A program made the position numbers and the translations under genes. From positions 1-10,531 of the forward strand of contig JAHQXC010000046.1 in assembly GCA_029856525.1 (NCBI GenBank): 10,531 nucleotides of DNA, given 5' to 3'. How positions within the stretch are numbered: position 1 is the stretch's first letter; each line of letters begins with the position of its first letter. Positions 1,150-10,531 of the stretch are shown here, piece by piece. The notes beneath the pieces were generated by a model. That model saw nothing but the letters and a program-made list of their open reading frames with translations, searched no databases and was not told the DNA's origin. The stretch comes from Candidatus Odinarchaeia archaeon. Lineage in GTDB: Archaea > Asgardarchaeota > Odinarchaeia > Odinarchaeales > Odinarchaeaceae.

Positions 1150-2619
1150 TTAGCTGTTCACAGGCTTATTATAATCAGAGGAGTAGCGGACATGTCTACT
1201 TTTACCCTGACCGATAATCTCTAGATTAAGTTTGTCAACGAATTTAATAGGCTCTAATATGAATAATCCTGCGTCTAAACCGATTTTAAAAGCTTCTATT
1301 CTGAGAAGTCTTGAAATAATTTCTTCTCTAAAAAGCTTTTCATCTTTAATATACCCTGGTTTAATTGTTAACGTTAACATTGGTTTATAATTTTTACGGG
1401 AAACATATATTTCCCAGTCATCTACGCGGCCGTTCACCATATTAGATTTTAAAATCTCATCAACAGAGATTGTGGAGAATCTTATAATACCGAGATTGAT
1501 AATATCATCTACACGGCCTAAAATCTTAAGTTTAGGGCAGACGCTTCCACACGAGCACTCTTCTACTTGAACTACTTTTACAAGATCTCCTATTCTATAT
1601 CTTACAAGCGGTAATGCTTCTTTAAAATCGGTGACTACAAGCGCGCCGGTTAAGTTTTTTTCAGCTTCAGATAGTAGAACAGCTTCAGGTGTATAACCTG
1701 GTTGTTTACGTTCTCTTTCAAGCTCTCTTTCAGGGATAATTTCTAATATACAGTTAAGTGAGGGAAAGTGTAAACCGTTATGTTCACTGCATTCATATCC
1801 TACTCCGAAGCCTTCAGTAAACCCGTATAAGTCGAATGCTTCTAAACCCCAAAGGTCTTGTAAAACCCTCCTGTAAGGGTCAAGTGACTCAGCGGTGAAG
1901 AATCCTAATCTAAGTTTTTTAAAAATATGCTTAGGTTTTATTGATATAATTTTTGTGAGAGTGGAACCTATTTTCAGTTTAAGACTCCCTTTCTCTTCAG
2001 CTATTTTTTTCAAGATACTCGGGGTTCTGCTCGCTATTTCCTCAGCTATTCTAAGTATAAGTGAGGGTGTTGATAATAGAACTGTTGGTTGTCTTTTCAT
2101 TAAAAGCTCGAAGCTATCTTGTATAGATGTCGGGCTTGCGATAATCTGCTCTATAGGATAGCCTACAGTAGCCGAGGACTCTAAAACCCGGTATGGTAGG
2201 CTCCCTGATATGAAAGGCGCTGGGAGAGTTATAGAAAGCATTATATCCTCAGGTTTCAATCCAGCTTCAAATAGTATTCTCCCTATTTCAAGACGAGCTG
2301 TCGAATAATCTTGGTAACTCCAGGGAATCCATTTCTTCTTACCCATAGATCCGGATGTGCAATGCCAGAGCGCTACGTTTCCTGTTAAAATTATCTCTTC
2401 CACAGGATGTCTTTCCCAAACTATTCTTAAATCATTCGAATCGATGAAGGGGAGTTTTCTAAGAGTATTGAAACCCTTCGAATCGTCTATTTTTAAATCT
2501 CTATTAGACCATTTATACCGGTATAAGGCTGAGAGAGAGCTCTTCCTGAAGAGATCGCTTTCAACCAGTTTCCTCTCCTGGTTTTCATAATGCTGCTGGA
2601 AGCTTAACAGATTTAACAC
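1150..2619 (-). CDS. Phenylacetate-CoA ligase (PaaK/F390-synthetase)-like adenylate-forming enzyme, paralog A
   Basis: Motifs: KLPF..SNDLR, P-loop HCTSGSMGKKK, LYGFTEG, ECSEHNGLH + CSCG (Zn site typical of PaaK-like proteins), RYRIGD, GRVDD, and C-terminal GKSRHV. GTG start. Substrate unknown. Confidence 0.85.
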   Translation of the reverse strand: MLNLLSFQQHYENQERKLVESDLFRKSSLSALYRYKWSNRDLKIDDSKGFNTLRKLPFIDSNDLRIVWERHPVEEIILTGNVALWHCTSGSMGKKKWIPWSYQDYSTARLEIGRILFEAGLKPEDIMLSITLPAPFISGSLPYRVLESSATVGYPIEQIIASPTSIQDSFELLMKRQPTVLLSTPSLILRIAEEIASRTPSILKKIAEEKGSLKLKIGSTLTKIISIKPKHIFKKLRLGFFTAESLDPYRRVLQDLWGLEAFDLYGFTEGFGVGYECSEHNGLHFPSLNCILEIIPERELERERKQPGYTPEAVLLSEAEKNLTGALVVTDFKEALPLVRYRIGDLVKVVQVEECSCGSVCPKLKILGRVDDIINLGIIRFSTISVDEILKSNMVNGRVDDWEIYVSRKNYKPMLTLTIKPGYIKDEKLFREEIISRLLRIEAFKIGLDAGLFILEPIKFVDKLNLEIIGQGKSRHVRYSSDYNKPVNS

Positions 2620-2650: not shown

Positions 2651-2849
2651 ACCGAGAATTTTAACTTTGTCGGTGAGAAGCCTCTGTGAAAGAGGATGGT
2701 GGAAGTCAGAAGATATTTATAATTCCAAATCTTCAAAAGGATACAGGTGTAGAGTTTGGATAGGCCTATGCGCCTGTTGATGGTAGAGAATACAGGCAAA
2801 CTCCCTTATTGGAGTAGGAATACCCTTACGATATAAGGGATTAGTTCAC
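2651..2849 (+). ncRNA. Orphan omegaRNA-like / IS200-IS605 right-end-like structured element without tnpB
   Basis: Six consecutive stems: 2651-55/2670-74, 2681-85/2691-95, 2709-14/2729-34, 2743-51/2769-77, 2800-04/2811-15 and 2823-28/2834-39. It ends GGAAT-hairpin-TAGTTCAC, the same layout as the element at 10429-10462 (GGAAG-hairpin-TAGCTCAC). It contains CGCCTGT...ACAGGCAAA...GGAAT.CCC, which resembles tnpB 3'-end sequences as I recall them. No TnpB-sized ORF. Confidence 0.55.
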
Positions 2850-2874
2850 TATAAGTTTCCAGCTATTATAGGAT

Positions 2875-4251
2875 GTGAGTAAACTGCTTGAAAAAATAGC
2901 TACATATATTATAGATAGAAAACTCCGGGATTTGCGGCATAAACTCAGTGAACTAGATTCTGAGAAGACTAGAAGAATCTTAAAAAAAGTTAACGCGAAT
3001 ATTATAGATAAGATTATTAAATATAAGTTTTATAAAACGCTTAAGCATTGCTCGGTAGACTCTCCCTTCTATAAGAAGAAGCTTACCAATCTTATGAGAG
3101 AATTAAATTATAAAAACTGTTTAAGCATACTAGAGACCCTGCCTTTTACCTATCCTGAAGATGTATCTAGAAGTCCTTCAAGTTTTCTAACAGTTCCTTT
3201 AACTGATATAGCCGCCTTCCATTTCACAGCGGGGACAACTGGTAAACGGAAGCTTTTATATGTTACAAGAGAAGACTTAGATTTAATAGCTTATAATTAT
3301 TCTCTTGGTTTTTTATGGAATGGTATTAATAGAAATGATATAGCGCAGATAATGTACTCGTTTGATATCTGGCAGCTTGGATTATTGGTTCAAGACGCTT
3401 TTAGAAGAATCGGAGTTAAAACTATACCTGCAGGTAACTCGATTACTCTTCGAGAGCAGCAGAATTTTATAGAAGAATATAATGTGAATGTTTTAGCAGG
3501 GACACCGTCATATATTTACCAGCTTGCAAGAGCGATAGATTTAAAGAACTCTGCTAAGGAGCATGTTAAAGCGATTATGCTAGGAGGGGAAGGGCTTTCT
3601 AAAACTAGAAGAAATTATATTCAGAACAGACTTGGGGGTGAAGTGTTTCTAGGATATGGTTTAATGGAGATAGGTGGCGGTGTCGCATCAGAATGCAGCA
3701 TGCATAATGGAATGCATATTTCAACTACAACTATACCTGAAATAGTTGATATTAAAACAGGTGAACCGGTTGGTTTAGAAGAACACGGGGAGCTGGTTTT
3801 AACCTCATTAGATAGATATGGAATGCCGTTTATCCGTTATAGAACAAGAGATGTAACCAGGTTTATAGAGGGGGATTGTGATTGCGGGTTAAAGCTTCCG
3901 AGAATCGATTATATTAAAGGCCGGCTTGACGACAGGGTAACTATTGGAACCGCTGAAAAATATTATCCGATAGTTTTTGAAGAGCTTTTTGAGCAGATAA
4001 CTGAGATTATCGACTTTCAAATAGAGATAACAAATTTGGATGGTCGAGATAATTTAAAAATACTTGTTAAAGCTGATAAGCCTTCTAAGGATGTTGAAAG
4101 AAAAATAATTGAGAAAATATATTCTATAAGCGGGCTTAGAAATGATATTGAAAAAACCGGGACTATTAATCCGCTTCAAATAGTCTTCACAGATGAATTA
4201 GAGAAATCTCCTAAGAGAAAGATTATAATTGATAAGAGGCTGGTTGATTAG
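2875..4251 (+). CDS. Phenylacetate-CoA ligase (PaaK/F390-synthetase)-like adenylate-forming enzyme, paralog B
   Basis: Motifs: SPFYKKK, LPFT, P-loop FTAGTTGKRK, GYGLMEIGG, ECSMHNGMH + CDCG, GELVLTSL...MPFIRYRTRD, GRLDD, and C-terminal KRKIIIDKR. GTG start; basic N-terminal extension of roughly 40-50 aa. Confidence 0.88.
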   Translation: MSKLLEKIATYIIDRKLRDLRHKLSELDSEKTRRILKKVNANIIDKIIKYKFYKTLKHCSVDSPFYKKKLTNLMRELNYKNCLSILETLPFTYPEDVSRSPSSFLTVPLTDIAAFHFTAGTTGKRKLLYVTREDLDLIAYNYSLGFLWNGINRNDIAQIMYSFDIWQLGLLVQDAFRRIGVKTIPAGNSITLREQQNFIEEYNVNVLAGTPSYIYQLARAIDLKNSAKEHVKAIMLGGEGLSKTRRNYIQNRLGGEVFLGYGLMEIGGGVASECSMHNGMHISTTTIPEIVDIKTGEPVGLEEHGELVLTSLDRYGMPFIRYRTRDVTRFIEGDCDCGLKLPRIDYIKGRLDDRVTIGTAEKYYPIVFEELFEQITEIIDFQIEITNLDGRDNLKILVKADKPSKDVERKIIEKIYSISGLRNDIEKTGTINPLQIVFTDELEKSPKRKIIIDKRLVD

Positions 4252-6363: not shown

Positions 6364-9321
6364 TTAATCTGATCTTTTGAAGAGAACAGTCACTTTTTCA
6401 CCGCTTATATTAAATTCGCTGATCGTATAATTTTCAACATTATTTTCAAATTCACTTAACAGTTTTAGAGATGAGGCGTTCACTTTAGAGAGCAATAGGT
6501 CTTGGAGATCTTTAACAGATTTGCTTATAAGGTTGCTTTTAGTAATTATTTGAAGATTTATTTTTTCACTGACATGGTAATTATTCTGTTTCCGAGCGAA
6601 CTGTATCCTTCTTATAAGCTCTCTTAATATTCGCTCCTCGACAAGCTGCTCATCCTCGCTTAAATCTAAGAAGATCTTGTATTCCTTTAACTCTTTGAAT
6701 TTTAACCCTTGATCTACTGGTGTTTCAGTTGAAACCTCTACTTGCTTAACATTAGCCATGGATTCTATTATAGATGTTATCTCTTCACTAAGCTTAATAT
6801 TAGAGGATACTATAATGAGTTTTTTACAAGGCCATCTTAATTTCACATTATTCTCTTGCCTTAAGGCGAGAGTGGCTTCTATGATCTCTCTAGCATTCTC
6901 CATTTCAGCTTCAAGATTGCGATCAACCATTTTTTCATCTACATTAGGCCAGCTAGTAAGGTGAACGCTTTCAGGGGCTTCAGCGTTCACGCTTTTAACG
7001 AAGTATTTGTATATGTAATCTGTTATGAAGGGGGTTATCGGAGCCATAATTCTAAGCAGACGCTCTAACACATAATATAAAGTGGATAAAGCCGCGTGCT
7101 TATCTTCAAGGTTATCCTGAGATGTAATCCGGTCGCGGATGATTTTAATATATAAGCGGCTTAAATCCTCTGTGATAAATTGTTCTAGTAATCTAGGCGC
7201 TTGGGGTATGTTGTAATCTTTGAAAAGATCATTTAACTTTTTAATTAAACTGTTTAACTTAGATATAATCCATTTATCCTCTAATCTTAAATCTGATAAG
7301 TCGAGTTTATCTGAAGGCTTGAACCCCTCTATTTTCATAAAGGTTGAAGCGTAAACGTATATATTATAGAAGATGTTGAGAACTTTCTCAGTGTCCTCTA
7401 TTTCCTTCCAGCCGAATTTCATATCTAAACCGGGTTCTGAGCAGCCTACACTGTAGAATCTGAAAGTATCCACCCCATACTTCTCTGTAACCACCTCCGG
7501 TAGAATAATGTTTCCAAGAGATTTACTCATCGGCCTACCTTCAGGATCGTTTACGAAACCGTGCATGTAAACTGCTTTATACGGGCACTTGTGGAAGGCT
7601 GCGGCTCCGAGACACATCATCGTGTTAAACCAGCCTCTTATCTGATCTTTACCTTCAAGAACGAGATCTGCACTACTCCAATCCTCGAATACCGGTTTAC
7701 CTAGCATAACAGGGGTTGAAGCCCACACCACTGAGCCGCTGTCAACCCACACATCTAAAACATCTTGAACTCTTTTAAACCAGCCTCCGCATTTACAAAC
7801 CCATTTAAATTCATCCACCCACGGTCGATGTAAATCATCTACTTTACGATTAGTTTTATTCTCCAACTCTTTTATCGAACCTATAACCTCTATAGCCCCG
7901 CATTTATCACAAACCCATATTGGGAGAGGTGTGCCCCAAAATCTTTGCCTTGAAATACACCAGTCTTGAACACTCTCAAGCCATTTATCAAACCAAGGGT
8001 TACCAGCCCACTTAGGAGTCCAGTTAACTTTAGAGTTTAAAAGTCTCATCTCATCTGAAAGCTTAGAAACGTTGATAAACCATTGTTCAACTGCACGGTA
8101 GATTAAAGGAGTCTTACACCTCCAGCAGTGAGGGTATTCATGCTCCACTTCCCCTTCGTATAATAAGAGGTTTTTACGCTTCAAATCCTTTAAAACTTCA
8201 AGGCTGGCATCCTTCACATGCATTCCAGCATACTTACCAGCTTCAGCCGTCATCCTACCTGATTCATCCACAGGGGAGAAAGCGGGTAAACCGTATTTTA
8301 AACCTACGATGAAGTCTTCTGGGCCGTGTCCTGGAGCTGTGTGGACGCAACCTGTACCCTGCTCTAAAGTCACATACTCATCGCTTAAGATTACTTTATG
8401 AGCGTTACTATATTTTTCACCAAGCTCTTTTTGGAATGGAACCTCCTCTAATAGACAGTGAATATAGGATAATCCCTCCAGTTTCTCACCGGGAATCTCC
8501 TCTATGATTTCGAAGCTTTTCCCTAGAAGGCCTTGGATAATCGAAACCGCCATTCCTTTAGCTAGAATCCAGATTTCATCTTCAACTTTAGCTCTCACAT
8601 AAGTATAGAATGGGTTAACCATAACAGCTAGATTAGCTGGCAGAGTCCAGGGTGTGGTGGTCCAGATCAGTATATACTCGTTTCCTCCTCCGGTTAGTTT
8701 GAATTTAACGAAAATAGATTTATCAGAGACATTCTTATACTCGTATTCGTGTTTAGCTAACGCGGTTTCACAGCGAGGACAGAAAGCTAAAGGTCTTAAT
8801 CCTTTATACAATAGTTTGTTTTCATATATTTTTTTAAGCCCGAACCAGACGCCTTCAATATAATCGTTTGTAAGCGTCATGTAAGGTTTACTCCAGTTCA
8901 TCGCTACGCCGAGTTTTTTAAACTGTTCTGTCATTTTACTCAGATTTTTTAAAGCGAATTCACGGCATTTTAAAGTAAATTCCGCTATTCCACCGGTTTC
9001 AATACTCTTTTTATCTTTAATTTTTAATTCTCTCTCAACTTTAACTTCAATAGGTAAACCGTGCATGTCAAAACCTGGTGTGTCTATTACTCTATGCCCT
9101 GTCATCCGTTTATATCTTAAAATAACATCCTTCAATATTTTATTCCAAGCGGTTCCTAAGTGAATGACGCCTGTGGTATATGGAGGGCCGTCTATAAAAA
9201 GGAATTCAGGGCGATTCTCTACTAGAGCAGTCATTTTCTCATATATTTTGCTAGCCTCCCAGAAATCGAATACCTCCTGTTCAGCTGATTTTCTAGAATA
9301 TACTTTCGGAAGCTCCTCCAT
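6364..9321 (-). CDS. ileS: Isoleucyl-tRNA synthetase (archaeal type)
   Basis: Motifs: DGPPYTTGVIHLGTAWNKILKD (HIGH variant), GFDMHGLPIE, editing domain WTTTPWTLPAN and GTGCVHTAPGHGPED, DWCISRQRFWG, EGKDQIRGWF, and PMSKSLGN (KMSKS variant). GGTGA SD upstream. Confidence 0.97.
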   Translation of the reverse strand: MEELPKVYSRKSAEQEVFDFWEASKIYEKMTALVENRPEFLFIDGPPYTTGVIHLGTAWNKILKDVILRYKRMTGHRVIDTPGFDMHGLPIEVKVERELKIKDKKSIETGGIAEFTLKCREFALKNLSKMTEQFKKLGVAMNWSKPYMTLTNDYIEGVWFGLKKIYENKLLYKGLRPLAFCPRCETALAKHEYEYKNVSDKSIFVKFKLTGGGNEYILIWTTTPWTLPANLAVMVNPFYTYVRAKVEDEIWILAKGMAVSIIQGLLGKSFEIIEEIPGEKLEGLSYIHCLLEEVPFQKELGEKYSNAHKVILSDEYVTLEQGTGCVHTAPGHGPEDFIVGLKYGLPAFSPVDESGRMTAEAGKYAGMHVKDASLEVLKDLKRKNLLLYEGEVEHEYPHCWRCKTPLIYRAVEQWFINVSKLSDEMRLLNSKVNWTPKWAGNPWFDKWLESVQDWCISRQRFWGTPLPIWVCDKCGAIEVIGSIKELENKTNRKVDDLHRPWVDEFKWVCKCGGWFKRVQDVLDVWVDSGSVVWASTPVMLGKPVFEDWSSADLVLEGKDQIRGWFNTMMCLGAAAFHKCPYKAVYMHGFVNDPEGRPMSKSLGNIILPEVVTEKYGVDTFRFYSVGCSEPGLDMKFGWKEIEDTEKVLNIFYNIYVYASTFMKIEGFKPSDKLDLSDLRLEDKWIISKLNSLIKKLNDLFKDYNIPQAPRLLEQFITEDLSRLYIKIIRDRITSQDNLEDKHAALSTLYYVLERLLRIMAPITPFITDYIYKYFVKSVNAEAPESVHLTSWPNVDEKMVDRNLEAEMENAREIIEATLALRQENNVKLRWPCKKLIIVSSNIKLSEEITSIIESMANVKQVEVSTETPVDQGLKFKELKEYKIFLDLSEDEQLVEERILRELIRRIQFARKQNNYHVSEKINLQIITKSNLISKSVKDLQDLLLSKVNASSLKLLSEFENNVENYTISEFNISGEKVTVLFKRSD

Positions 9322-9474
9322 TTCACCACACCGTTAACTTGTTTACAGTAAATAGAATTTTTTAAAATAAAATCACTTATAGTATAATTATTTTACTGTT
9401 GCTTGCTGACAACGAATAAGGTGGATATGCTTTTAAATTTTTTCATGTAAACTATTATCAAGGTTGACTTGTAA

Positions 9475-10531
9475 ATGCGGCGCATCATCCTTATAGCATT
9501 TATATTATTATCTAGTTTGATTGTAAGCCCAAATATTATCTCAGCCTCCCAGCAGCCTGCAATAATCTCAGAGATATCTGAAGCGAACATTCAATGGATT
9601 TTAAATAATCTAACAAGTTTCCAAACTAGACGCGCAGGAACTGTTGAATGCAATATGAGCGCTGAATACATCTACAATTATTTGAAGGCGATTAATATCA
9701 GCGTAGACTATGAGTTTTTTAACACTCCTAGTGGAGTGTTAGCCAATGTAGTTGCTGATATAACAGGTTCCAGCTTGAAAGAGAATTATGTGATTATAGG
9801 AGCTCACTATGATTCTATAAGTAGCAGTGGAAACGCTCCTGGAGCTGTTGACAACGCGGCAGCTGTAGCCGTATTAATGGAGTTAGCTAGAGTGTTATCT
9901 AATCACAGCCTATCTAGAAGCGTTAAAATTCTATTTTTCAGCGGAGAGGAGATCGGTAGATACGGGTCTTTAAACTGGGTGAGTAAAAATTACGAGATAA
10001 GATGGAATCTGACCGCTACACTCATACTTGACATGGTCGCTTACGGTAACAGTCTAGTTATAGATTATAATAGTGTCTCTAAACCTTTAGCTGACTACAT
10101 ATTCGAGAAAACCAGTTTTAAAAACTATTTGAGCGTTGAAGAGAATAATTATTTAAGCGATCATCAAAGCTTCTGGTCTGCGAATATACCAGCAGTATTA
10201 ATACACCAGAATAACCCGTTAGAGTATCCTTACTATCACACATCTGAGGATACTGTGGATAAAGTGAACTTTAAACTATTAGCTTTAACAGCCTCATTAA
10301 CTCTGGAAGCTGTCTACTTTCTAGCTACAGACCCAAGCTTAGAGAACCTATATTATAAAGCGAATCCTATTTATCTTATTATACTTATAGTTTTACCTAT
10401 AGTCTTTTTAACATGTTTAGGGTTAGTAGTGAGCTACTCCTCGACTAAAGTCGGGAGCTTCCAGCGTTCGTCTGAGGCTTTACGCCTTCAGTTACACGTG
10501 CTGGTTCGCGGGGCTCACAGCTCCGCCATCC
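9475..10531 (+). CDS. M28-family zinc aminopeptidase with signal peptide and C-terminal TM anchor; no stop in the window, runs into an IS end
   Basis: Manually translated from ATG 9475: MRRIILIAFILLSSLIVSPNIISA... Motifs GAHYDS, GAVDNAAAV, FSGEEIG, LDMV, SDH and YHTSED. TM helix IYLIILIVLPIVFLTCLGLV ends at 10428. Five N-X-S/T sequons. Confidence 0.9.
   Translation, partial: MRRIILIAFILLSSLIVSPNIISASQQPAIISEISEANIQWILNNLTSFQTRRAGTVECNMSAEYIYNYLKAINISVDYEFFNTPSGVLANVVADITGSSLKENYVIIGAHYDSISSSGNAPGAVDNAAAVAVLMELARVLSNHSLSRSVKILFFSGEEIGRYGSLNWVSKNYEIRWNLTATLILDMVAYGNSLVIDYNSVSKPLADYIFEKTSFKNYLSVEENNYLSDHQSFWSANIPAVLIHQNNPLEYPYYHTSEDTVDKVNFKLLALTASLTLEAVYFLATDPSLENLYYKANPIYLIILIVLPIVFLTCLGLVVSYSSTKVGSFQRSSEALRLQLHVLVRGAHSSAI
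10429..10531 (-). mobile_element. Right end / omegaRNA 3' region of an IS200/IS605- (or IS607-) family tnpB element; the rest lies beyond the window
   Basis: The minus strand reads ...CTGAAGGC-GTAAA-GCCTCAG ACGAACGCT GGAAG CTCCCGAC-TTTA-GTCGAGGAG TAGCTCAC. This shows a subterminal hairpin, GAAG at its foot, a TCAC end, and an upstream GTGAGC (10513-18) complementary to the terminal GCTCAC. GC content jumps abruptly relative to the host gene. Confidence 0.75.

What the first reader, a model, noticed from the sequence alone, without database searches (positions are those of the whole stretch)
2651..2870. Orphan omegaRNA-like RNA with no tnpB, followed by a potential guide
Seen: about 200 nt of back-to-back hairpins ending GGAAT-[CCCTTA/TAAGGG]-TAGTTCAC, paralleling the IS end at 10429-10462. 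The loop of hairpin 2681-2695 (GTGAA) is exactly complementary to the terminal TTCAC (2845-2849). GGATGGTGGA (2694-2703) matches GGATGGCGGA at 10531-10522 in 9 of 10 positions. No TnpB ORF is present. Established: TnpB omegaRNAs derive from the element's right end, form a pseudoknot with their 3' end, and use the flanking DNA as guide. Inference: either a non-autonomous miniature element or a stand-alone omegaRNA that loads a TnpB or nuclease-dead TnpB encoded elsewhere. The guide would be TATAAGTTTCCAGCTATTAT (2850-2869).
Basis: partly seen in the sequence, partly recalled or inferred. Interest (0 to 1): 0.72.

Follow-up and report, generated by a model that had tools for sequence, protein, structure and literature searches.

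The report
Gene-less mini-transposon carrying TnpB guide-RNA remnant
The flagged stretch is one worn copy of a roughly 190-base, protein-less IS200/IS605 mini-transposon (a PATE) that landed in a gene promoter of this Odinarchaeota genome; it keeps its parent's promoter joined to the guide-RNA scaffold of a TnpB nuclease, which is a real but already described kind of element.

Summary

- **Copies.** It is one of at least 21 full-length, 65-83% identical copies in this 1.32-Mb Odinarchaeota assembly. All are intergenic and all follow TTTAA.
- **Insertion.** Two same-genus genomes have the same gene pair with an uninterrupted site (GAATTTTAA|TATAA). This proves insertion 3' of TTTAA without target duplication, the IS200/IS605 hallmark.
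- **Parent.** A complete parent-type element is found in another archaeal MAG: TTTAA, left end, TATA box, tnpA, tnpB, then ...GGTAGTTCAC. The mini-element's 3' ~100 nt aligns to that tnpB 3' end plus right end.
- **RNA structure.** A covariance model of this module shows strong covariation. It also hits the 3' end of an annotated TnpB gene in Halorubrum.
- **This copy.** It is degenerate: 24.8 bits against 77-112 for typical copies, with one stem-loop deleted.
- **Partners.** No cognate TnpB or TnpA is in the assembly.
- **Unsupported details.** The proposed pseudoknot is not conserved, the 9-of-10 motif is at chance level, and the "guide" has no second target.

Verdict: a PATE carrying an omegaRNA remnant, a known kind. 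This scan already reached the same verdict on other copies in this genome.

The parts
2660..2664 (+). Target / transposon-adjacent motif TTTAA, immediately 5' of the element. It is the upstream half of the split TATA box of the + strand gene.
   Evidence: TTTAA precedes every full-length copy. The empty sites in G003 and G002 read ...TTTTAA|TATAA... and ...TTGGAA|TATAA.... The parent-type IS in G201 is also preceded by TTTAA.
2665..2849 (+). The inserted element: a 185-nt protein-less IS200/IS605 derivative (PATE), here called 'family B'.
   Evidence: Removing exactly 2665-2849 restores colinearity with two same-genus genomes, and there is no target duplication. It is one of >=21 full-length copies.
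2681..2695 (+). Sub-terminal left-end palindrome (CCTCT GTGAA AGAGG), preceded by GAGAAG.
   Evidence: Read. The homologous hairpin GGAAG-CCCC...GGGG is present in other copies and in the left end of the tnpA/tnpB element L073.
2707..2721 (+). BRE/TATA-like block (CAGAAGA TATTTATA), inherited from the parent's tnpA promoter. The predicted start of transcription is about 2743-2746.
   Evidence: This is the most conserved block of the family, with invariant T58, T60 and A61 and near-invariant neighbours. In L073 the same block lies 31 nt upstream of the tnpA ATG. Promoter activity is inferred, not measured.
2743..2849 (+). omegaRNA-scaffold-derived module, homologous to the 3' end of tnpB plus the right end of the parent. 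Stem S1 and part of S2 are kept; stem-loop S3 is deleted.
   Evidence: Alignment A3 to tnpB-linked right ends. Covariance model R1 hits 2763-2849 at 24.8 bits, E = 7e-4. 15 of 24 model pairs form and 6 are gapped.
2823..2839 (+). Sub-terminal right-end hairpin (CCCTTA CGATA TAAGGG), preceded by GGAAT.
   Evidence: Read. The helix covaries across the family and across tnpB-linked homologues (helix 6).
2842..2849 (+). Conserved right terminus TAGTTCAC, the transposon-encoded end motif.
   Evidence: Shared by most copies and by the tnpB-linked right ends in G201 and G202. The extended terminal motif has more than 118 exact matches in other genomes.
2850..2869 (+). 3' flank, which is the nominal guide if a read-out transcript is made. 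It is also the downstream half (TATAAG) of the split promoter of the gene starting at GTG 2875.
   Evidence: It aligns to the DNA that directly follows TTTAA in the empty site of G003. There is no second TTTAA-adjacent match in the genome: at best 6 mismatches in 20, or 3 in 16. No match in viral contigs.

Best explanation
Window 2665-2849 is a non-autonomous, protein-less derivative of an IS200/IS605-family transposon (a PATE). It arose from a tnpA-tnpB parent by deletion of the coding core. What remains is the left end (target-proximal sequence, sub-terminal palindrome, tnpA promoter) joined to the last ~105 nt of the parent, that is the tnpB 3' end (omegaRNA scaffold), the right-end palindrome and TAGTTCAC.

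It inserted as single-stranded DNA, mobilised by a Y1 TnpA supplied in trans. It landed 3' of TTTAA without target duplication, inside the TATA box of the AMP-binding-enzyme gene that starts at 2875. This happened after this lineage split from its sequenced congeners.

If its internal promoter fires, it makes a ~105-nt omegaRNA-like RNA that runs into the flank. A cognate TnpB would use that RNA to cut the vacant site (TTTAA + TATAAG...) and so favour retention of the element.

In this copy that RNA function is probably lost: one stem-loop is deleted and no cognate TnpB is in the assembly.

Shown: repeat family, exact insertion boundaries, homology to a tnpA/tnpB element, conserved RNA structure of the module. 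Inferred: promoter activity, transcript ends, use by TnpB, effect on the neighbouring gene.
For: 1. **Repeat family.** nhmmer finds >=21 full-length copies and ~10 partial ones. Ends are sharp (TTTAA|CTTTATCGG ... TAGTTCAC) and flanks are unrelated.
2. **Empty sites.** In same-genus genomes G003 and G002 the window minus 2665-2849 aligns straight across GAATTTTAA|TATAA.
3. **No coding capacity.** The flanking genes are ordinary AMP-binding enzymes.
4. **Parent-type element.** L073 (G201:C196) reads TTTAA|left end with the same hairpin and TATTTATAG box, then tnpA (PF01797), tnpB (PF01385, PF07282, PF12323), then ...GGGTAGTTCAC.
5. **Homology of the 3' module.** The 3' ~90 nt of a typical copy aligns to that tnpB 3' end plus right end at 78% identity, E = 2e-13 (alignment A3).
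6. **RNA structure.** Model R1 has three nested stems plus the right-end hairpin. 88.5% of cells pair against 40-48% when slid, 18 of 24 pairs show double changes, and 0 of 500 shuffles reach this.
7. **Independent annotated hit.** R1 matches the 3' end of an annotated 'RNA-guided endonuclease TnpB family protein' gene in Halorubrum lacusprofundi pHLAC01 at 34 bits, E = 2e-6.
8. **Literature.** PATEs are defined by near-terminal palindromes, no inverted repeats, no target duplication and origin by core deletion of IS605-type elements (PMC3119063). PATEs 'often encode omegaRNAs' to be used in trans (PMC10055086). TTTAA is the experimentally shown TAM of the archaeal SisTnpB1 (10.1101/2023.03.06.531077).
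Against: - No cognate TnpA or TnpB is in the 93%-complete assembly, so the mobilising and RNA-using proteins are not identified here. The two TnpBs present share 22% identity, or no significant similarity, with the cognate type. The only TnpA is 34% identical.
- Transcription is untested.
- Within this genome's own copies, covariation alone is not above shuffled controls. The strong signal needs the tnpB-linked homologues, and it comes from an alignment fitted to the model.
- The copy lacks stem-loop S3 and scores only 24.8 bits.
Confidence: 0.9

Rival explanations
1. The copy is still a working guide-RNA gene. Its promoter makes an omegaRNA that a cognate TnpB uses in trans for homing or retention. 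That TnpB would be encoded in the unassembled ~7% of the genome or on a virus or plasmid of the same host.
For: - The promoter block is the best conserved part of the family.
- 16 copies keep a high-scoring scaffold at 77-112 bits, although the model was built from these copies.
- The vacant-site sequence in G003 has TTTAA next to the guide match.
- PATE omegaRNAs used in trans are proposed in the literature.
- Several contigs end inside family copies, so the assembly is broken at such repeats.
- The right-end motif occurs in 16 viral contigs.
Against: - No cognate tnpB was found with the G201 protein or by Pfam or tblastn searches of the genome.
- This copy lacks S3 and is among the lowest-scoring members.
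- The family's copies are 65-83% identical, which fits old insertions.
- No vacant-site form appears in the source sample's contigs, though contigs drop rare variants.
Confidence: 0.12
2. Domesticated stand-alone guide RNA for a nuclease-dead TnpB-like repressor (TldR-like) or another host protein, regulating genes through its guide.
For: Only circumstantial: it has no tnpB, it carries its own promoter-like block, and it lies in a promoter region.
Against: - It is absent from the orthologous site and from the whole genomes of three congeners.
- None of 19 copies tested has a second TTTAA-adjacent target with fewer than 3 mismatches in 16.
- No TnpB-like gene of the matching clade is present.
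Confidence: 0.03
3. Exapted mobile promoter. The insertion split the TATA box of the gene at 2875, and the element's outward-reading promoter, or the new junction CACTATAAG, now drives or modulates that gene. This does not exclude the PATE reading.
For: - The empty site shows TTTTAATATAA about 27 nt upstream of the conserved GTG start, and the element sits exactly inside it.
- The element reads toward the gene, 25 nt from its start.
- 4 of 21 copies lie 26-32 nt upstream of a co-oriented ORF start, against 4.6% of intergenic TTTAA sites (crude P ~0.014).
Against: - TTTAA is simply common in archaeal TATA boxes, so promoter hits are expected from target choice alone.
- There are no expression data.
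- The ORF starts come from a crude caller, and the distance window was chosen after seeing the data.
Confidence: 0.1
4. A host structured non-coding RNA or cis-regulatory leader (such as a riboswitch) of the AMP-binding gene, unrelated to transposons.
For: Intergenic position directly upstream of a gene, and several hairpins.
Against: - No Rfam hit.
- The same element sits in >=21 unrelated contexts.
- It is absent upstream of the orthologous gene in congeners.
- It is homologous to transposon ends.
Confidence: 0.01

Closest known systems
PATEs (palindrome-associated transposable elements) of Haloquadratum walsbyi and other haloarchaea (Dyall-Smith et al. 2011, PMC3119063)
   Same: It is too short to encode a transposase and has no inverted terminal repeats. 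It has near-terminal palindromes at both ends, causes no target duplication, and inserts next to a 4-6-nt target. It derives from IS605-type transposons by core deletion and forms heterogeneous, diverged families. Terminal-only mini versions exist too (about 44 nt here, 52 bp there).
   Different: Different host (Odinarchaeota, Asgard) and a different sequence family. Here the deletion joins the parent's promoter to the omegaRNA scaffold, a point the 2011 work could not address.
PATE-like elements encoding omegaRNAs in Geobacillus stearothermophilus (Meers et al. 2023, PMC10055086)
   Same: These are protein-less IS200/IS605 derivatives with conserved left and right ends whose omegaRNA would have to be used in trans by a TnpB encoded in another element. 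The guide is the flank, and its target is the vacant site next to the TAM.
   Different: There the TnpA and TnpB partners are present in the same genome and omegaRNA expression was measured. Here no cognate partner is in the assembly and no RNA data exist.
IS200/IS605 elements with tnpA+tnpB and TAM 5'-TTTAA of Sulfolobus islandicus (SisTnpB1; bioRxiv 10.1101/2023.03.06.531077)
   Same: An archaeal, thermophile-associated IS200/IS605 with the same TTTAA target/TAM. The omegaRNA is derived from the right end.
   Different: That element is autonomous and its TnpB activity is shown. I did not test sequence relatedness of SisTnpB1 to the G201/G202 TnpB. A Sulfolobus MAG contig does carry the same right-end motif.
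TldR systems: TnpB-like nuclease-dead repressors with adjacent guide RNAs (bioRxiv 10.1101/2023.11.30.569447)
   Same: A TnpB-type guide RNA outside an active transposon.
   Different: TldR guide RNAs are single-copy, lie next to the tldR gene, and target a conserved promoter elsewhere. This element is multi-copy, mobile, lineage-specific, has no partner gene and has no second target.

Membership tests
PATE (non-autonomous IS200/IS605 derivative) | Too short to encode a transposase | tested here: met
   The element is 185 nt. The only overlapping ORF is a 53-aa minus-strand frame that also covers the flank. No Pfam hit in or next to it other than the two AMP-binding genes.
PATE (non-autonomous IS200/IS605 derivative) | Near-terminal palindromes at both ends, no inverted terminal repeats | tested here: met
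   Left palindrome 2681-2695 and right palindrome 2823-2839, each preceded by GA/GGAAG-like bases. The termini CTTTG... and ...GTTCAC are not inverted repeats.
PATE (non-autonomous IS200/IS605 derivative) | Insertion 3' of a short specific target without target-site duplication | tested here: met
   Empty sites in G003 and G002 give TTTTAA|TATAA, and removal of exactly 2665-2849 restores colinearity. TTTAA precedes all copies.
PATE (non-autonomous IS200/IS605 derivative) | Ends homologous to those of an IS605-type transposon that encodes tnpA and/or tnpB | tested here: met
   L073 carries the same left end, hairpin and TATA block, then tnpA and tnpB, and the same right end.
PATE (non-autonomous IS200/IS605 derivative) | Dispersed multi-copy family | tested here: met
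   >=21 full-length copies on 17 contigs. 19 covariance-model hits at E <= 0.01.
PATE (non-autonomous IS200/IS605 derivative) | A matching Y1 TnpA available in trans | tested here: not met
   The only Y1 transposase (C44) is 34% identical to the parent-type TnpA and belongs to an element with TTAC/TCAA-type ends. The assembly is 93% complete. This bears on current mobility, not on identity.
TnpB omegaRNA | Derived from the transposon right end, overlapping the 3' end of tnpB | tested here: met
   Shown by homology. The module aligns to the tnpB 3' end plus right end in G201 and G202. Model R1 hits the 3' end of an annotated TnpB gene, ending 15 nt past its stop codon.
TnpB omegaRNA | Conserved secondary structure supported by covariation | tested here: inconclusive
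The family plus tnpB-linked homologues show strong covariation. This genome's copies alone do not. The window copy forms 15 of 24 pairs, with stem-loop S3 deleted.
TnpB omegaRNA | Guide taken from the 3' flank, matching the vacant site next to the TAM | tested here: met
   In G003 the sequence homologous to 2850-2869 directly follows TTTAA.
TnpB omegaRNA | Cognate TnpB encoded in the genome | tested here: not met
   No match to the G201-type TnpB at E <= 1e-20. The two TnpBs present are 22% identical or not significantly similar.
TnpB omegaRNA | Expressed as a discrete RNA and bound by TnpB | not testable with these tools
   No run recorded as RNA holds this DNA.
Rfam families | Match to a curated covariance model | tested here: not met
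   No hit at gathering thresholds. The only hit at E <= 10 is a chance-level trypanosomatid snoRNA.

The most novel reading that the evidence does not exclude
A 1.3-Mb Asgard genome keeps about 20 promoter-equipped TnpB guide-RNA cassettes without the matching nuclease gene. They could be serviced by a TnpB carried on a virus or plasmid, or by a non-cognate resident TnpB. Alternatively they could act as mobile promoters, because their TTTAA target is the archaeal TATA box, so that a mini-transposon family rewires the expression of several host genes, including the AMP-binding enzyme gene at 2875.
Probability: 0.1. Interest if true: 0.55.

Novelty: new member of a known kind. Interest (0 to 1): 0.25.

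Why it matters
It documents, with exact boundaries and an empty site, an IS200/IS605 mini-element in an Odinarchaeota (Asgard) genome. It also links the family to its tnpA/tnpB parent type and to a widely distributed archaeal omegaRNA right-end class.

This helps annotation, since these ~190-nt repeats would otherwise be mistaken for structured host RNAs or regulatory leaders. It also gives a covariance model for this omegaRNA class.

It does not reveal a new mechanism. PATEs, and PATEs that carry omegaRNAs, are already described. The possible side effect, insertion into TATA boxes because the target TTTAA resembles them, is a modest testable point.

Tried and rejected
- **Rfam** at gathering and permissive thresholds: nothing relevant.
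- **RNAalifold on a plain MAFFT alignment** of 19 copies found only one 5-bp hairpin, because indels misalign the stems. A column-pair scan was swamped by low-complexity pairings.
- **C44 IS605 as the parent: rejected.** I first took this tnpA+tnpB element as the parent because its upstream region matches the family's 5' part (E = 7e-16). Comparison with its 68%-identical relative in G048 shows that the C44 element starts after TTTAC and ends ...TGTCAA. It therefore merely sits inside a family-B-like 5' fragment.
- **C93 TnpB element ('family A') as the partner: rejected.** Only the last ~37 nt are similar (nhmmer E = 2.8; R1 15.5 bits, E = 0.13). The proteins are 22% identical.
- **Pseudoknot GTGAA/TTCAC:** not conserved.
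- **9/10 motif:** chance level by my estimate.
- **Guide targets:** none in the genome and none in viral contigs.
- **Sequencing runs:** no RNA holder listed. Only the probable source DNA sample holds the stretch. Laying its contigs showed no joined (vacant-site) form and no cover in the other two runs.
- **Family in three same-genus genomes:** not found by BLAST or by the covariance model.
- **Papers:** no paper holds both 'Odinarchaeum' and 'TnpB'. The 2025 paper on circular archaeal omegaRNAs does not mention PATEs.

Full report
**Setting.** The finding lies in the 255-bp gap between two divergent genes for AMP-binding enzymes: 1150-2619 on the minus strand and 2875-4251 on the plus strand. 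The aspartate kinase gene in the window is 85-89% identical to proteins of two 'Candidatus Odinarchaeota archaeon' MAGs, so the host is an Odinarchaeota (Asgard) archaeon. Its assembly has 1.32 Mb in 127 contigs, 38.5% G+C, and is 93% complete.

**Observation.** The single-sequence fold is not unusual, with z = -1.56 on the plus strand and -0.92 on the minus strand. Rfam gives nothing.

**It is a repeat.**
- BLAST and two rounds of nhmmer against the genome find at least 21 full-length copies and about ten partial copies of a ~190-nt unit, 65-83% identical to each other.
- Ends are sharp. Every copy follows TTTAA, begins CTTTATCGG..., and ends ...TAGTTCAC. Flanks are unrelated.
- All copies are intergenic.
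- The best conserved block is an archaeal BRE/TATA-like GAAAAGTATTTATAG in the middle.

**It is an insertion, with exact boundaries.**
- Two same-genus genomes (G003, flanks ~80% identical; G002, a one-contig genome) carry the same divergent gene pair but not the element.
- The window with 2665-2849 removed aligns straight across the junction: window GAATTTTAA|TATAAG, G003 GAATTTTAATATAATG, G002 GAATTGGAATATAATT.
- Only removal of exactly 2665-2849 restores colinearity.
- The element is therefore 185 nt, inserted 3' of TTTAA with no target duplication. That is the signature of IS200/IS605 'peel and paste' transposition and part of the definition of PATEs (PMC3119063).
- The family is not found anywhere in three congeners, either by BLAST or by covariance model.

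**The parent type.**
- A pattern scan of 185,579 species genomes with the left end plus the TATA block hit two other archaeal MAGs.
- In one of them (G201, labelled Thermoproteota; locus L073) the whole element is present: TTTAA | CTTAGCCGGCAGGAAG-hairpin-...AAGTATTTATAG | tnpA starting 31 nt after the start of the TATA box | tnpB | ...GAAGCAGGAAGCCCC-loop-GGGTAGTTCAC.
- Pfam confirms a Y1 transposase and a TnpB with PF01385, PF07282 and PF12323.
- The 3' ~90 nt of a typical copy from this genome aligns to the 3' end of that tnpB plus its right end at 78% identity, E = 2e-13. The window copy aligns too, with a 14-nt gap.
- The mini-element is thus the parent's left end and promoter joined to the parent's last ~105-120 nt, which is where TnpB omegaRNA scaffolds lie.
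- By analogy with the parent's leaderless tnpA, transcription from the retained TATA box (2714-2721) should start near 2743-2746, right at the start of the scaffold-derived part. This is inference.

**RNA structure.**
- I wrote a structure of three nested stems (S1-S3) plus the right-end hairpin on an alignment of 14 copies and one tnpB-linked right end.
- On those sequences alone, 86% of cells pair against 33-58% when slid, but covariation is not above shuffles.
- After building model R1 and aligning 26 matches that include tnpB-linked right ends of G201 and G202, 88.5% of cells pair against 40-48% when slid. 18 of 24 pairs have changes on both sides, and 0 of 500 shuffles reach any measure.
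- The caveat is that this alignment is fitted to the model.
- R1 also hits the 3' end of an annotated 'RNA-guided endonuclease TnpB family protein' gene on Halorubrum lacusprofundi pHLAC01. The hit ends 15 nt past the stop codon (34 bits, E = 2e-6).
- The terminal motif GAAGCAGGAANCCCC...GGTAGTTCAC has more than 118 exact occurrences across many archaeal lineages and a few bacteria, plus 16 viral contigs. This is a widespread omegaRNA/right-end class.

**State of this copy.**
- The window copy scores 24.8 bits (E = 7e-4 in 66 kb). Sixteen other copies in the genome score 77-112 bits, though the model was built from such copies.
- It forms 15 of 24 model pairs and has lost stem-loop S3. It shares that deletion with its closest paralogue on C119, which is 79% identical.

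**Partners.**
- The assembly holds two tnpB genes and one tnpA.
- The TnpB on C93 belongs to another element ('family A'). Its target is TTTAT, its end is ...GTAGCTCAC, and it has its own ~280-bp mini derivatives. Window 10429-10531 is one of its right ends.
- That protein is 22% identical to the cognate type.
- The C44 tnpA+tnpB element has TTAC/TCAA-type ends and sits inside a family-B-like fragment. Its TnpB shows no significant similarity to the cognate type, and its TnpA is 34% identical.
- No cognate mobilising or RNA-using protein was therefore found.

- A complement to the terminal pentamer occurs in the 5' part of only ~9 of 19 copies, at shifting places. It also lies upstream of the predicted transcript start. 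The pseudoknot is therefore not supported.
- The 9/10 motif is at chance level by my estimate, and it is neither in the family consensus nor collinear with the other IS end.
- The nominal guide (2850-2869) matches only its own flank. The best other TTTAA-adjacent site has 6 mismatches in 20. None of 19 copies tested has a second site with fewer than 3 mismatches in 16. No viral contig matches.
- This is what a transposon guide, aimed at the vacant site, should look like.

**Side effect.**
- The empty site shows that TTTTAATATAA lies about 27 nt upstream of the conserved GTG start, so the element split the likely TATA box of a leaderless gene.
- Four of 21 copies lie 26-32 nt upstream of a co-oriented ORF start, against 4.6% of intergenic TTTAA sites. 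This is a crude, post hoc P ~0.014.
- Whether this alters expression is unknown.

**Comparison with what is known and verdict.**
- The element meets the tested defining features of a PATE (PMC3119063).
- It matches the description of PATEs that 'often encode omegaRNAs' needing a TnpB in trans (PMC10055086).
- TTTAA is the demonstrated TAM of an archaeal TnpB.
- It is a new member of a known kind.
- Earlier notes of this scan on other copies in the same genome reached the same verdict. I formed the reading before seeing them, and I checked it independently here.
- New here are the empty site for this copy, the tnpA/tnpB parent type, the covariance model, and the finding that this copy is degenerate.

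Noticed in passing
window 10429-10531 (minus strand): Right end of a different TnpB element ('family A', ...GGAAGCTCCCGACTTTAGTCGAGGAGTAGCTCAC) at the contig end. It is 96-100% identical at five other places. The full copy, with a 426-aa TnpB, is at C93:25961-27305. About 280-bp mini derivatives (left end 105 nt + right end 173 nt, target TTTAT) lie at C125:1-278, C29:3820-4100 and C71:10583-10863. The M28 peptidase ORF (9475-10530) runs into this end without a stop codon.
   Followed up: partly
G000 C44:7996-9876 (L010/L044): An IS605-type element (tnpA 8222-8614, tnpB 8580-9902) whose ends look like IS608 (insertion after TTTAC, end ...TGTCAA). It appears to have inserted into a decayed family-B-like fragment. 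Its closest TnpB relative (68% identity) is in a distant Asgard genome (G048), not in the congeners.
   Followed up: partly
G000 C84:613-656, C82:20388-20431, C3:4618-4662, C10:5042-5090: Very short (~44 nt) units made of TTTAA, the left-end sequence, one hairpin and, in C84, ...GGTCAC. They resemble the 'terminal-only' 52-bp PATEs described in Haloquadratum.
   Followed up: no
G000, 21 full-length copies: Four copies (C78, C51:11735, C24, C119:676) end 26-32 nt upstream of a co-oriented ORF start, against 4.6% of intergenic TTTAA sites (crude P ~0.014). The TTTAA target may steer these elements into archaeal TATA boxes.
   Followed up: partly
L073:1474-2616 (G201:C196) and relatives in G202: The cognate-type TnpB (380 aa) matches the whole 60-position PF07282 profile with only 46 residues. 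In the pairwise alignment it has a gap where the C93 TnpB has its CxxC...CxxC zinc ribbon. In L056 the tnpA frame is interrupted by an early stop codon.
   Followed up: no
Genome contigs and viral contigs (L077-L172): The right-end motif GAAGCAGGAANCCCC(8-24)GGTAGTTCAC occurs exactly in more than 118 stretches from many archaeal lineages (Hadesarchaea, Methanoculleus, Bathyarchaeia, Heimdall- and Hermodarchaeota, haloarchaea, Sulfolobus, Thermococcus). It also occurs in a few bacterial MAGs and in 16 IMG/VR viral contigs.
   Followed up: partly
G000 C121:4163-4450: A TnpB C-terminal remnant (zinc-ribbon part only) directly after a hisF-like gene. It is followed by an AGTGTAGAGCT... stretch resembling the window/C119 subfamily and by a right-end-like hairpin ending GGTGGTTCCC. 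This is a third decayed TnpB element.
   Followed up: no
window 1150-2619 (-) and 2875-4251 (+): The two genes flanking the insertion are divergently oriented and are both AMP-binding enzymes (PF00501; one also has a weak GH3 middle-domain hit). The arrangement is conserved in congeners.
   Followed up: no
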